Part shown: positions 7,134-12,207 of the stretch, piece by piece
Position numbering within the stretch: position 1 is the first letter of the stretch
How the letters are laid out: each line of letters begins with the position of its first letter
Assembly (NCBI GenBank): GCA_964486045.1
Contig: CAZALK010000007.1
Location: 128,001-192,000 of the forward strand
Reading direction: 5' to 3'
DNA: 64,000 bases
Origin: an uncultured archaeon
Lineage (GTDB): Archaea > Asgardarchaeota > Lokiarchaeia > Sigyniarchaeales > SOKP01
The notes under the pieces: model-generated
Database searches by the model: none
Seen by the model: only the letters and a program-made list of their open reading frames with translations
Told to the model about the DNA's origin: nothing
Translations under genes and position numbers: made by a program

Positions 7134-7697
7134 CTATTTTAAATTATTTAAAATCTGAACTGACAAAGATTCAAAAGCTTTATCAATATTTTCTTTTGAT
7201 TTTGCGGAAGTTTCCATATATTGTACGTTATAGGAATCTGCCTTTTCCTTTCCCTCCTCAAAGGTAACCAATCTTTCATCCTTTTTATCAATTTTATTAC
7301 CAATAATGATGTACGGAATATCACCACTTAACTCTGTGAATTTAGAAATCCAAAAATCTATGTTATCGAACGATTCTCTGTTAATTACATCGTATACAAC
7401 AAATGCACCAACCGCTTGAACAAAATAATATTCATTGCTAAATAATTTATCATGTTGGCCACCTAAATCCCAGAAATAAAGCTTAAATCCTTTATCTTTA
7501 ATATCCTTCCTCAGAATAGGATTTTTAATATCCAATTTGTCAATAACTTTGCTTAATTCAATTTCCTTTATTAAAAAATTAGCTCCTAATGTTTGATTAT
7601 AGTCATCACTAAACTGGTCATCTACATAACGGGCTAGAATACTAGTTTTTCCTACGCTTGGGTCCCCGCACAATATAACCTTTCCTCGATACGACAT
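7134..7697 (-). CDS. Rab-like small GTPase
   Basis: GDPSVGKTS, TLGANF, WDLGGQ, GNKID, ETSAK; no C-terminal prenylation cysteines. Confidence 0.93.
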   Translation of the reverse strand: MSYRGKVILCGDPSVGKTSILARYVDDQFSDDYNQTLGANFLIKEIELSKVIDKLDIKNPILRKDIKDKGFKLYFWDLGGQHDKLFSNEYYFVQAVGAFVVYDVINRESFDNIDFWISKFTELSGDIPYIIIGNKIDKKDERLVTFEEGKEKADSYNVQYMETSAKSKENIDKAFESLSVQILNNLK

Positions 7698-7846: not shown

Positions 7847-8671
7847 CTACTTTTTAGTCGTTGTCAATTTGATTAATTTACATTGGCTAGTAATAAAGTA
7901 TCTAAATAAATGTTCATATCCTATAATCTGCTTTGGCATTCCGTTCTCTAGCCATAATCCTGATGTGTATTCTGGTGCCTCTTTTACTTGATCTAAGGTT
8001 GTCAGCAAAAATTCGTTATCCGAAATTAACAAACCGAAGGGAATAACATTGTCACCTTCTATTGAATGAATTGTCATAGAGACTTTTAATAATTTTTTGA
8101 TTTCCTCTTTTAAAGCTTCGTAATATTTCAATGCAATAATAAGTTGGATATTAGTAGAAAATTTCTTACTCCATAATTCTTTTAATACCCATTCATATCC
8201 TCCTAATTCATTCATAAGCAAATCTGGAGTAATAATGAAAAAAATGCGTGTTTCTGCACTACTAATTAATTCTTTTATCTTTTTTCTTATTTTAGATCTC
8301 GAATTTATGGCCCAAACACGAGGTTCTGATTCTTCTTTTGTTATCTCTAAGTCACTAATGATTTTTTCTAGTACTAAAGTATCTTCAATCCTCTCCTTAT
8401 ACTGGTCGCGTATAGTCTTGAAAATCCTGGGTATTGGAATCACTTGATAATTCGCACCCCTCTTAATGGGTTCTTTTTGAATAAAACCCTTATCTATTAA
8501 TCTATTTAAAGAATCATACACTCTAGCTCTATCTACTCCGGAATGTTTTGCAATATCCGCAGGGCTTAATATCTTATACTTACATAGAGTAAGTAAAACC
8601 TTCGAATCATTCTTCGTGAATCCTAATGATTGGAGTGCTTCCTCAATTTCAGATTCTTCTAACTCAGGCAT
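7847..8671 (-). CDS. TrmB-family transcriptional regulator
   Basis: LQSLGFT..DSKV, DIAKHSGVDRARVYDSLNRLIDKGFI wHTH, C-terminal PLD-like effector domain. Confidence 0.88.
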   Translation of the reverse strand: MPELEESEIEEALQSLGFTKNDSKVLLTLCKYKILSPADIAKHSGVDRARVYDSLNRLIDKGFIQKEPIKRGANYQVIPIPRIFKTIRDQYKERIEDTLVLEKIISDLEITKEESEPRVWAINSRSKIRKKIKELISSAETRIFFIITPDLLMNELGGYEWVLKELWSKKFSTNIQLIIALKYYEALKEEIKKLLKVSMTIHSIEGDNVIPFGLLISDNEFLLTTLDQVKEAPEYTSGLWLENGMPKQIIGYEHLFRYFITSQCKLIKLTTTKK

Positions 8672-9097
8672 ACTCAGGTTTCAAGAATTTAAACTAAAAT
8701 TATGTCAGTCTAATTTTATTATTATAATACAATAGTCAAATATCTTATATTTTAATTTATTTTTTTAGTAAAAATTTAGAGATTTCAGATTTCATTTTGA
8801 TTTTTGATACATTGCAGTTTTTCGCTCAATAAATTAACTGAAAGGCGGACTATTGTTATCTTTTTAAAAAAAAAAAAGTCATGGCGTGATTAAATAGATC
8901 ATGAAAATGTTATAATTCTGCTTTCAGCAAAAATTTAACAACTATTAATATTGGATCGTTTAAGTTTCAAAAATTTTTATTGAAACATTAATAATAGGTA
9001 AAAAACAATAATTTAAGAGTACAAGCTTTTATTTCCGACAAAATCAAAAAATAGTTTTTATTAGAAATTAATATCATATTAATAAACCGATCTAATT

Positions 9098-9165
9098 TTC
9101 GAAATTAACGATTCGAATTAAAATATCATCTAAAATTATTGATTCGAATCATAATATTTATATAA
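9098..9165 (+). promoter_or_regulatory. Histone promoter region: three TTCGAA palindromes upstream of a TATA-like box
   Basis: TTCGAA at 9098, 9112 and 9143 (the last within TGATTCGAATCA), followed by TTTATATAA at ~9157. Confidence 0.4.
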
Positions 9166-9235
9166 TAGAAATGTGTAGTAATACTTAATTAACATCTAAA
9201 TTACAATCTTATATAAATAAGTTGGAGGAATAAAA

Positions 9236-9502
9236 ATGGCTAAAAAGAAAGCTCCTGCAAAAAAGAAGTCTGAAGGATATATTGCCAAAAACGTCTAAAA
9301 TCTATTTTTTCGTTGGTATGCTCCAATCCGCAGGCTTATGAAAAAAGAGGGTGCAGATTTAGTAGCAGCTGAAGCCCTTGATAAGCTAATTGGCTTCTTA
9401 GAAGGCAGTGCAGCGACGGCAACAAAGGAAGCTATAAAAGTCTGTAAAGAGGATAAGCGCAAGAGAGTAACTGCCGCAGATATTCGCGCCGCAACCCGCT
9501 AA
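9236..9502 (+). CDS. Archaeal histone with lysine-rich N-terminal tail; join(9236..9289,9320..9502), 78 aa after splicing
   Basis: GGAGG SD then ATG; spliced product MAKKKAPAKKKSEGYIAKAPIRRLMKKEGADLVAAEALDKLIGFLEGSAATATKEAIKVCKEDKRKRVTAADIRAATR has histone-fold motifs (APIRRLMK..GA..V; KRKRVTAADI); missed by ORF track because of in-frame TAA at 9296. Confidence 0.92.
9290..9319 (+). other. Putative BHB/BHL-type pre-mRNA intron in histone gene (30 nt)
   Basis: GCCA-[AA^A]-ACG...CGT-TGGT-[AT^G]: 4-bp central helix GCCA/TGGT, 3-nt bulges, inner helix ACG/CGT; carries in-frame TAA; excision gives GYIAK|APIRR. Confidence 0.8.
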
Positions 9503-9532
9503 ATAACTTTAGATTTCAAATATTAATGATAA

Positions 9533-9548
9533 TTTTTTTTCTTTTTTT
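9533..9548 (+). terminator. Oligo-T archaeal terminator after histone gene
   Basis: TTTTTTTTCTTTTTTT about 30 nt after the stop codon. Confidence 0.5.
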
Positions 9549-9925
9549 AATTTTCTTTCTAAATTGTGCTTGATTTTCTTTTACTCACTAATAATGGAAT
9601 AGGTGCACTAGGTGGTGAATCTAAAGACAATTTTAAAAAAAAGAAGGCTAAAAGAACATTATAAAATTAGTGCATAGGGATACGTATATGCACTTAGTCT
9701 TTCCAATAAAGAGGATTTGTCTTTAAAAAATTATCAGAAATGTCTCTTTTATTGAAAATTAAGATAGTTTTTATCAAGTTAAATAAAATATTTGTATAAA
9801 ACTAAAAATTAATTTTAATCAACCTTAGGCATATAATTGACTAAATTATTCAAGACTAAAAGAGGGTATATTTAAATTACTAAATCACTTTCTATTGTAT
9901 TGAGAGTATAAAAACCAGATCAATT

Positions 9926-11204
9926 ATGAAAGAGTTTAAAATTAATAAGTATTTATCATTGAGATTAGAAGATGAAAAGACAAATATCTATATCAACCAA
10001 AAGAAAACCGACAATGTAAATATTTATTAATTGATAGAATCAAATACGACGAAATACCAGAATTGGTTGAAAACTTTGAATCTGTGGATGAAGCAACACA
10101 AAACTCAGATCATTCTTTAGATAATAAGAAAGACGTGATACCACCAGAAACAGAATTTTGGGCGCACTGCTCGAATCTTCAAGTATGGGCGGAAAATAAC
10201 TATGATACACGCTTACTTCATATGTCAATAGCGTTTTCATTATTAAAAGAATTAGCAGAAGCGGGGATACGATGGCCAAAAGAGTATTTAAGGAAGAAAT
10301 TGCTAAACGCCTAGGAAGTGGCTATCCTGCCGTCGTTGATTTTTTAATTCTTGAAGGATTCGACATATTTTTGACTCATGAAGAACGAATAACCTCAGTT
10401 CTAGCACCGGAAGAAGCAGATGTCATCTTGAAGTTAGAGGAATTGACGAAAAAACCCTTTTTTCAATATTCTAACCTTGATGAAAGCTATTCAGATGAAG
10501 GTCCCTTTGAACAAAGGTTTGTCGTTAAAAACAATCATGTTATAGGTATTTGGATTCATTGGGCAAAAGAAACTCCTAGAAAACTCCCCGAGTGGATAAC
10601 TAAATTAAAACTGCTTAAAAGGCTTTATTATACAGGAAATAAAATTAAACATATACCGAAGTTAATATTAAAACTGAAAAGACTCGAGGTCTTACAGATC
10701 GATAGTTTTATTCTAGAAGAAATACCAACGACAATTAATAAGCTAAGATTACTCAAATCTCTAAATATACGAAGCGGTAGCTTGAGAATGATACCAGAGA
10801 CCATTGGTGGACTTTCCCACCTTAAATCTCTTTCCTTAGGCAGTAATTTGATTGACTTACCTATCTCAATTGGGAACTTGGAGAAATTAGAAGAATTAGA
10901 TTTATCTCATAACAAACTTAACAATATTCCAAATTTTATATTCAACCTTAAAAATCTTAAGAACTTGAACATCAAAAACAATAATTTAATAGCTCTTTCA
11001 GAGTCCATAAGCAAACTAGAAAAATTGGAAGAGTTAGATTTTAGTAGAAATCCAATAAGGAGTATTTCAGAATCACTTGTTGATATGGTAAAATTAAAAT
11101 TTGTATCTATTGATAAAATTCCCTCAACTGGTTCTAATATATCTATAATAAAAAAAATGAAAAAAAGAAAGAAAATTAGTGTTTTTGGTTATGTTGGTAA
11201 TTGA
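9926..11204 (+). pseudogene. Leucine-rich repeat protein with two frameshifts (pseudogene or assembly indels)
   Basis: MKEFKINKYLSLRLEDEKTNIYINQK / RQCKYLLID..PETEFWAHCSNLQVWAENNYDTRLLH..LLKELAEAG / D.MAKRVFKEEIAKRL + LRRs lie in three successive frames, with shifts at ~10007 and ~10265. Confidence 0.8.
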
Positions 11205-11229: not shown

Positions 11230-11637
11230 GACCTATTCCTAAGATGCGTTAACGAAGCCAACCCCATAATTATTCAGCAACACCAATCCAAGATCAAAAA
11301 GTTAAAAACATTTATAATTAGTTATACAAGCAACATTTACACGCCCATAATTAAAACGTATCAATCTTTAAAAGAAAGTACCAATTCCAAATTAGAACAG
11401 TTTTATTTCAATGTTGTAGATGCAATCAATACAAAGCTTGAAAAGGTTGCTAAAAAATTTGAGATGGATATTAGCGAATTATATTTTGATGACGGTTTAG
11501 AACTTAAGATAACGGTTAAGAACAGTCCATTGAGTAAATTCCCTCTTAAAAGCCTTGATTTTGACGATCTGGAGACCACACACAAGAAAGTAATAATTCG
11601 GATCCTCAAAACAGATATTCGCGCTGCTACAAGATAA
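11230..11637 (+). pseudogene. Open frame with no upstream canonical start, ending in histone C-terminus DIRAATR*
   Basis: Stop-free for 135 codons; last 7 aa identical to the histone at 9236; 13-nt identity CAGATATTCGCGC. Confidence 0.45.
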
Positions 11638-11688
11638 ACTTTTCAGATTGAATACCAAAATTCTTTTTTTTTATTTTATATTTTTAGT

Positions 11689-12207
11689 TTAGAAATTTTC
11701 AAAGAATTCTTTATTTAAGTAGTTGTGTATATTCTTTTCAATTTTCTTCTTTACTGCATTTAATCCTTCAGGAAGAACACGAGTTTTTCCTACTATGTCA
11801 ATAAATCCAAGTTCAGATCCGTATCTGGGAATTATATGAAAATGCAAATGGTCAATACTTCCACCTGCATCTCTTCCCTGGTTAATTCCGATATTATATC
11901 CCTTAGGGTTATATAATTCGTCTAATAATAACTGAATTCCTTGAATAGCTCGATTAATGTGAAGTATTTCTTCTTTTGTCAAATCAAGGAACCTTGTTAA
12001 ATGTCGTTTAGTTACGATCATTAGATGCGCAGGATTATACGGATACAAATTCAAAATGATAAAACAAATATCATCTTCGTAAACTTTTAGAATTTCAACG
12101 CGTTCGTCATTATCCCTTACAGCACATAGTATACAATCTACTCTTGGTCTAGATTTGCCTTGAACATAATCTAATTTTCCTAAAGCTTGTAACCAATCTC
12201 TAAAAAT
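11689..12207 (-). CDS. HIT-family (Ap4A/Fhit-like) hydrolase, probable ATT start
   Basis: CILC zinc motif, LNLYPYNPAHLMIV, GYNIGINQG..AGGSIDHLHFHIIPR; frame extends 51 codons above the ORF-track start to ATT after GGTGA SD. Confidence 0.9.
   Translation of the reverse strand: MFRDWLQALGKLDYVQGKSRPRVDCILCAVRDNDERVEILKVYEDDICFIILNLYPYNPAHLMIVTKRHLTRFLDLTKEEILHINRAIQGIQLLLDELYNPKGYNIGINQGRDAGGSIDHLHFHIIPRYGSELGFIDIVGKTRVLPEGLNAVKKKIEKNIHNYLNKEFFENF

What the first reader, a model, noticed from the sequence alone, without database searches (positions are those of the whole stretch)
9236..9502. tRNA-type (BHB/BHL) intron interrupting a histone mRNA
Seen in sequence: SD and ATG at 9236 read MAKKKAPAKKKSEGYIAKNV*, then the same frame resumes NLFFRWYAPIRRLMKKEGA..., a complete histone fold. 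The region folds as GCCA-[AAA]-ACG-loop-CGT-TGGT-[ATG]: a 4-bp helix flanked by 3-nt bulges, with a weak outer helix (GGA/TCC beyond an internal loop, so a relaxed BHL form). Established: the archaeal splicing endonuclease EndA cuts after the second nucleotide of each bulge. Applying that rule removes 9290-9319 (30 nt) and gives GYIAK|APIRRLMK, a normal histone alpha-1 start. Inference: expression of this chromatin protein needs EndA/RtcB splicing, and the unspliced mRNA makes only a 20-aa Lys-rich peptide. The well-established archaeal mRNA intron that I know of is crenarchaeal cbf5. A histone intron in an Asgard archaeon would be notable and is invisible to gene callers.
Basis: partly seen in the sequence, partly recalled or inferred. 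Interest (0 to 1): 0.95.

Follow-up and report, generated by a model that had tools for sequence, protein, structure and literature searches.

The report
Spliced mini-intron in Asgard tailed histone
The only tail-bearing histone gene of this Asgard (Lokiarchaeia) archaeon is broken by a 30-base insert that is very probably cut out of the messenger RNA by the tRNA-splicing enzymes; related genomes carry similar mini-introns at six places in the same small gene, whereas the papers I could search describe such splicing inside only one archaeal coding sequence (cbf5).

Summary
Confirmed. The insert 9290-9319 puts a TAA in frame. Intronless orthologues read GYIAK|APIRR, which fixes one junction, and that is where the EndA rule cuts a GCCA/UGGU helix with two bulges. 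Of 124 distinct orthologous genes, 15 carry 19 inserts of 29-32 nt at six positions; all have 3-4 of 4 helix pairs at the cut register (shuffles: 5.9 of 19). Four other lineages have an insert at this exact site (29, 30, 31, 32 nt) with unrelated interiors and compensatory pairs, which argues against nonsense mutation, readthrough and artefact. Synonymous codons in the flanking exons form an 11-pair outer helix in carriers and rarely in non-carriers. The gene is the single HLoB-type tailed histone, with pN about 0.05 against pS about 0.8. Two more of the six histones found carry two introns each, far above the sampled background. A two-subunit EndA with the broad-specificity loop and RtcB are encoded. 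This intron's inner hairpin is weak. The scan noted such introns before in other genes and genomes.

The parts
9157..9164 (+). TATA-box-like element upstream of the gene (inferred promoter)
   Evidence: Seen in sequence; the same stretch is visible upstream of orthologues L039 and L066; function inferred
9224..9228 (+). Shine-Dalgarno GGAGG
   Evidence: conserved in orthologues
9236..9289 (+). Exon 1: Lys-rich N-terminal tail and the first residues of the histone fold (18 codons, ends GYIAK)
9290..9319 (+). 30-nt intron, phase 0, with in-frame TAA at 9296-9298
   Evidence: absent from 109 of 124 distinct orthologous genes at any site, unique junction; present in a second assembly
9320..9502 (+). 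Exon 2: rest of the histone fold (60 codons) and stop
   Evidence: PF00808; HPhA, HMfB and HMfA matches
9284..9287 (+). 5' arm of the central 4-bp helix (exon, GCCA)
9288..9290 (+). 5' bulge AAA; predicted cut after 9289
   Evidence: cleavage rule from PMC2738675
9291..9313 (+). Intron interior: 3-bp inner helix (9291-9293 with 9311-9313) and a weak A/U hairpin
9314..9317 (+). 3' arm of the central helix (intron, UGGU)
9318..9320 (+). 3' bulge or loop AUG; predicted cut after 9319
9266..9278 (+). 5' arm of the displaced exon-exon outer helix
9326..9337 (+). 3' arm of the exon-exon outer helix, made by the codon choice ATC CGC AGG
   Evidence: ATY-CGC in 5 of 5 same-site carriers and 6 of 112 non-carriers
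9338..9502 (+). Truncated 54-aa ORF that gene callers report; lacks the tail and most of helix 1, no GGAGG
9533..9548 (+). Oligo-T tract, probable terminator
   Evidence: inference from archaeal oligo-T termination (own knowledge)

Best explanation
A functional endonuclease-type (relaxed bulge-helix-bulge) intron in the mRNA of the single tailed, HLoB-type histone. The nascent transcript folds an 11-pair exon-exon stem, an internal loop, the 4-bp central helix, the 5' bulge and a short intron hairpin. The two-subunit EndA cuts after 9289 and after 9319, RtcB joins the exons, and the 78-aa histone is translated. Unspliced RNA gives only a 20-aa peptide. Shown by sequence comparison: junction, motif, covariation, exon recoding, purifying selection, enzymes present. 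Inferred: cleavage, ligation, and expression. The intron belongs to a family of 29-32-nt mini-introns gained and lost repeatedly in the histone genes of this family; it is most likely a tolerated passenger rather than a regulator, because most relatives lack it.
For: Orthologues without insert read GYIAK|APIRR. 19 inserts in 15 of 124 genes, 29-32 nt, six positions, found by a motif-blind spliced aligner; central helix 4/4 in 14 and at least 3/4 in 19, against shuffled means 1.6 (max 5) and 5.9 (max 13) in 5000 shuffles. Across all histone paralogues: 37 distinct introns, 29 with 4/4; among 14 with a unique junction 9 have 4/4 against a null mean of 0.27. Five same-site introns: 91% of cells paired, a two-sided change C-G to A-U in the central helix and two-sided changes at all three inner pairs; slid registers give 20-46%. 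Exon-exon duplex of the window gene is in the top 2% of non-carriers, P 0.01 against GC-matched synonymous recoding; carriers rank high at their own sites (17 of 19 in the top tenth) but not at other sites (11 of 51). pN 0.04-0.05 against pS 0.77-0.87 between the window gene and other same-site carriers. Single copy in the genome and in all 44 genus genomes with a match. EndA alpha keeps the residues matching Aeropyrum K44, R46, Y125, H133, K164, W183; a second paralogue and RtcB are intact.
Against: No intronless contig matched a carrier's exons closely enough to be its cDNA (best 91%). The fold is marginal: z 0.06, lost in unconstrained whole-mRNA folding, interior among the two weakest of 37. 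The 3' bulge is not closed by an adjacent outer pair. Carriers are related, so counts overstate independence; pairwise pN/pS cannot exclude very recent loss of function.
Confidence: 0.92

Rival explanations
1. The intron was functional in ancestors but has decayed in this lineage, so the gene is now poorly spliced or a young pseudogene; at most a tail-less 54-aa product is made from the ATG at 9338.
For: Weakest class of inner hairpin; loop motif shifted by two bases; competing long-range folds.
Against: All elements EndA reads are intact (4/4 helix, both bulges, 3 inner pairs, 11-pair outer stem). Exons have no lesion. It is the only tailed histone found in a 99% complete genome. No GGAGG before 9338.
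Confidence: 0.04
2. Translational bypass (ribosome hopping, as in T4 gene 60 or fungal mitochondrial byps; own knowledge) or stop readthrough instead of RNA splicing.
For: A hairpin insert of about 30 nt with a stop soon after the 5' junction; G004 has a stop-free in-frame insert here.
Against: Bypass needs matching take-off and landing codons; here they are AAA and TAT, and 29 of 37 introns have at most a 1-nt repeat at the junction. Same-site inserts of 29, 31 and 32 nt cannot be read through. Neither model explains pairing between exon and insert at the EndA register.
Confidence: 0.02
3. A DNA-level hairpin insertion (miniature mobile element) that disrupts the gene, with a chance resemblance to the splicing motif.
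For: Uniform size, internal hairpin with a shared loop motif (TC at intron positions 14-15 in 26 of 37), patchy distribution.
Against: The 3' arm changes with each host site to pair with the exon; chance is rejected; host exons stay under purifying selection and are recoded to pair. No second copy of this insert in the genome. A mobile origin is compatible with the main explanation; disruption is not.
Confidence: 0.015
4. Assembly or sequencing artefact.
For: The genome is a metagenome-assembled bin with 7.8% contamination.
Against: Identical insert in a Logan assembly; different inserts at the same site in four other lineages from other samples.
Confidence: 0.005

Closest known systems
cbf5 pre-mRNA intron of Crenarchaeota (Watanabe 2002; Yoshinari 2006; Yokobori 2009, PMC2738675)
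   Same: Short intron inside a coding sequence, relaxed BHB motif, cuts between the second and third bulge nucleotides, hetero-oligomeric EndA, gains and losses among relatives.
   Different: cbf5 has one fixed site in one gene and splicing was shown by cDNA. Here there are six sites in one 78-codon gene, introns in other histone paralogues and other genes, up to two per gene in GTDB genomes, a narrow 29-32 nt size and a shared loop motif; splicing is not yet shown.
BHB intron in the 5' UTR of Haloferax HVO_1309 (PMC7714728)
   Same: EndA acts on an mRNA and removal appears to matter for expression.
   Different: Untranslated region, homodimeric euryarchaeal enzyme (own knowledge), single case; that 2020 paper names cbf5 as the only other mRNA case.
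Non-canonical tRNA introns of Asgard archaea (bioRxiv 10.64898/2026.10.13.758758)
   Same: Repeated independent gains, BHB at the boundaries, two-subunit EndA, unknown route of arrival, not yet shown spliced in a cell. This genome has several tRNA introns of about 28-32 nt (rough).
   Different: That work covers tRNA genes only (no mention of mRNA, cbf5 or histones) and other families. The TC loop motif of the histone introns is seen in 1 of 16 tRNA intron guesses here.
HLoB tailed histones of Ca. Lokiarchaeum ossiferum (bioRxiv 10.64898/2026.07.02.735847)
   Same: [quoted passage not shown]
   Different: Those genes are multi-copy and uninterrupted; the paper does not mention introns or splicing.

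Membership tests
EndA-spliced archaeal (BHB/relaxed BHB) intron | 4-bp central helix between exon and intron 3' end, at the register two bases before each cut | tested here: met
   4/4 at a junction fixed by orthologues; P 0.0036; register table peaks there
EndA-spliced archaeal (BHB/relaxed BHB) intron | 3-nt bulge closed by an inner (intron) helix | tested here: met
   AAA bulge, 3 pairs with two-sided changes across same-site carriers
Canonical strict BHB | Second 3-nt bulge closed directly by an outer exon helix | tested here: not met
   No adjacent outer pair; the outer helix starts beyond a 5-by-8 internal loop. It is a relaxed form, not a strict BHB
EndA-spliced archaeal (BHB/relaxed BHB) intron | Removal by the cut rule restores the conserved product | tested here: met
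   78-aa histone colinear with intronless orthologues
EndA-spliced archaeal (BHB/relaxed BHB) intron | Host encodes a broad-specificity EndA and a ligase | tested here: met
   Two EndA paralogues, alpha with the L1/CSL Lys and Arg and catalytic residues; RtcB; relaxed motifs need this enzyme type (PMC5829648)
EndA-spliced archaeal (BHB/relaxed BHB) intron | Spliced RNA in vivo or cleavage in vitro | not testable with these tools
Group I or group II self-splicing intron, or other Rfam family | Ribozyme core of hundreds of bases; Rfam match | tested here: not met
   30 nt; no Rfam match at E up to 1 in 8600-10100
Translational bypass element | Matching take-off and landing codons | tested here: not met
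   AAA versus TAT; no repeat at this junction
HLoB-type tailed Asgard histone | Histone fold with Lys-rich N-terminal tail, orthologous to HLoB | tested here: met
   PF00808; 57-66% identity over exon 2 to G055 genes bearing the published HLoB.1 and HLoB.2 peptides; no tree with named HLoB sequences was built

The most novel reading that the evidence does not exclude
Histone genes are hot spots for a family of mobile, non-autonomous 30-nt mini-introns that invade abundant mRNAs of one Lokiarchaeia family, arrive or persist with a tract of recoded exon, and are removed by the tRNA splicing machinery: an archaeal case of intron proliferation in protein genes, on the branch nearest to eukaryotes. 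Not excluded but less likely (about 0.1): splicing is used to regulate the supply of the tailed histone.
Probability: 0.4. Interest if true: 0.92.

Novelty: new variant of a known kind. Interest (0 to 1): 0.82.

Why it matters
In the papers I could search, splicing inside an archaeal coding sequence is a one-gene exception (cbf5). Here the main tailed histone of an Asgard lineage, and half of the histone genes found in this genome, appear to need it. If true: (1) protein-gene introns can multiply in a prokaryote close to the eukaryote ancestor without a spliceosome, which gives a natural system for the open question of how introns are gained and spread; (2) histone inventories of these genomes are wrong, since gene callers report tail-less or split products; (3) a 30-nt intron in a very abundant mRNA is an easy target for metatranscriptome reads and for an in vitro EndA assay.

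Tried and rejected
An exact look-up of the spliced protein was left out because it has no reference; among proteins returned none equals it. Intronless contigs that encode the spliced products of other carriers (P0141, P0002, P0003, P0009) were fetched as possible cDNA, but differ at many synonymous sites (at most 91% identity), so they are other alleles. Whole-region folding energy is uninformative. One search used a structure string that was off by one column; one search is the corrected count. A first aligner timed out; tRNA-intron parsing failed twice, and the result picks junctions by motif, so it is circular and partly wrong. A 192-nt gene tree was too weak to order gains and losses. Horizontal spread with co-converted flanks was tested: it fits site 149 (carriers differ at 19-26% of synonymous codons near the intron, 54-59% far away) but not the window's site. 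No search found a paper on Asgard mRNA introns; subscription journals are largely outside that library.

Full report
Observation. The sequence is as described: GGAGG, ATG at 9236, 20 codons, TAA at 9296-9298, then the same frame to 9502. The downstream part is a histone fold (nearest solved structures HPhA, HMfB, HMfA). Removing 9290-9319 gives 78 residues. Relatives are Promethearchaeota MAGs, so the host is a Lokiarchaeia-type Asgard archaeon. The contig comes from an ENA metagenome assembly, and a Logan assembly, probably of the same reads, has the identical insert.

Junction. About forty close orthologues read GYIAK directly into APIRRLMK. I wrote a spliced aligner that knows nothing about RNA structure and ran it on 124 distinct orthologous genes from GTDB genomes and metagenomes. 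It places the window's insert at one possible junction, 9290-9319. That is the position given by the EndA rule of cutting between the second and third base of each bulge (PMC2738675). A complete 4-bp helix at that register arises in 0.36% of shuffles of the intron.

The same gene elsewhere. Fifteen of the 124 genes carry 19 inserts, all 29-32 nt, at six positions (reference nucleotides 50, 51, 70, 104, 149, 194); more carriers came from truncated database proteins. Fourteen inserts have 4/4 pairs and all 19 at least 3/4, against shuffled means of 1.6 and 5.9 with the same number of alternative junctions. At the window's own site there are four other inserts: G068 (32 nt), G004 (30 nt, no stop), L156 (31 nt) and L329 (29 nt). 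Their interiors do not align, yet 91% of the cells of the named structure pair, with a two-sided change in the central helix and at all three inner pairs; sliding the register drops pairing to 20-46%. These five are kin, so the shuffle counts are not probabilities. Among 161 genomes of the class this site was matched only in the window's genus.

Exons adapt to the intron. The 3' bulge is not closed by an adjacent pair, so this is a relaxed motif. Beyond an internal loop the exons form an 11-pair stem. It depends on synonymous codons: ATY-CGC after the junction occurs in 5 of 5 carriers and 6 of 112 non-carriers. The window's exon-exon duplex ranks in the top 2% of non-carriers and beats GC-matched recoding (P 0.01). 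Carriers rank high at their own sites and not at other sites. Against their closest intronless relatives, carriers differ at 20% of bases within 30 nt of the junction and 6% elsewhere. This is selection on RNA pairing across the junction, or gene conversion, or both; it is not expected of a dead gene or of a DNA hairpin.

The gene is functional and unique. Between same-site carriers pN is 0.04-0.07 and pS 0.75-0.87. The orthologue is single-copy in the genome and in all 44 genus genomes with a match. Its counterparts in a 6.04-Mb single-contig relative carry the peptides published for HLoB.1 and HLoB.2 of Ca. L. ossiferum and are uninterrupted. That preprint reports tailed histones among the most abundant proteins of cultured Loki cells and does not mention introns.

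Machinery. The genome has two EndA paralogues and an intact RtcB. One paralogue aligns to crenarchaeal alpha subunits and keeps the loop Lys and Arg (Aeropyrum K44, R46) that confer activity on relaxed motifs, plus the catalytic residues (PMC3241643). The other lacks the catalytic His by eye and is read as beta. PMC5829648 states that Asgard EndA is of this type.

Context. Two other histone genes of this genome carry two 30-nt introns each, all 4/4: five introns in six histone genes, about 430 codons. Relatives have introns in every paralogue type examined; these loci were picked because they looked broken, not by motif. Pooled: 37 distinct histone introns, 29-32 nt, A as first base of the 3' bulge in 34, TC at positions 14-15 in 26, usually ending a 5-nt hairpin loop. 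A blind census gives the background. Proteins from 1.2 Mb of a same-genus genome found 3 clean introns in 734 loci of this genome, and the reverse found 2 in 793. Proteins of another family found the window's intron blind and two more of 29-30 nt in 308 loci; the reverse found none clean in 344 loci (timed out). So roughly 0.3-1% of ordinary genes are affected and histones are enriched by two to three orders of magnitude per codon. The census skips very short genes, and the same-genus runs miss shared introns.

Mechanism. Most likely the stem folds as the RNA is made (central helix probability 0.93 when transcription has just passed the intron, falling and fluctuating later), EndA cuts twice, RtcB ligates, and the full histone is made. 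Cleavage and ligation are inferred from the cbf5 precedent. How the introns arrive is open. Their excess in very abundant mRNAs suggests an RNA-linked route, and the shared loop suggests one family; shared flanks at site 149 suggest lateral spread. None of this is shown. A regulatory role is unlikely to be general because about 88% of orthologues lack any intron.

Weak points. No transcript or peptide evidence. This intron's hairpin is among the weakest of the set, its fold energy is not above chance, and unconstrained folding of the whole mRNA loses the motif. Carriers are not independent.

Comparison and verdict. It works like the cbf5 intron and meets every sequence-testable feature of a relaxed EndA substrate; it is not a strict BHB, a ribozyme intron or a bypass element. 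My searches found cbf5 as the only coding-sequence case and HVO_1309 as a 5' UTR case, and Asgard introns described only for tRNA. Earlier notes of this scan report the same kind of intron in other genes and genomes, one with claimed RNA support that I did not check; I found the paralogue inserts before reading them. New variant of a known kind; confidence 0.92; interest 0.82.

Noticed in passing
window 11580-11690 versus 9457-9558: A diverged copy of the histone 3' end (the last codons DIRAATR, stop and T-rich tail) closes an unrelated ORF ending at 11637. In several relatives the HIT gene follows the histone directly; here about 2.1 kb with an LRR gene lies between the two copies, like an old insertion that duplicated the gene end.
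   Followed up: partly
L260 and L261 (G062:C54, G070:C109): A histone with two adjacent introns of 30 and 28 nt separated by a 5-nt micro-exon, with compensatory changes between the two genomes.
   Followed up: partly
G000 C6:146615-146644 and 146775-146804; C12:112768-112797 and 112898-112927: Two more histone genes with two 30-nt introns each; the C6 pair is shared with G068 at 93-97% identity, while the window's intron has no alignable interior in G068.
   Followed up: yes
G000 C5:238662 (+), C1:29542 (+), C26:11204 (+), C5:233471 (-), C13:92018 (+): Clean 28-46 nt disruptive inserts with 4/4 helices in non-histone genes, from the blind census; gene identities not determined.
   Followed up: partly
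G006 (single contig, 90% complete), G023, G061: The tailed histone orthologue was not found with this query in several fairly complete genus genomes; it may be lost, unassembled, or broken by several introns.
   Followed up: no
G129:C82, G103:C90, G128:C136: Truncated matches in other genera end near residues 69-71, which may be further introns at the 3' site.
   Followed up: no
L058 (G006:C1:3341895-3342098): A small AKKAAAK-tailed basic protein with weak similarity to the histone, possibly a divergent histone type.
   Followed up: no
G000 whole genome: ARAGORN finds only 31 tRNA genes, many 25-30 nt too long and misnamed, so tRNA genes carry non-canonical introns too; a tRNA-Sec is present on C15.
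   Followed up: partly
window 7134-7697 (-): Ras-family small GTPase two genes upstream, typical of Asgard archaea.
   Followed up: no
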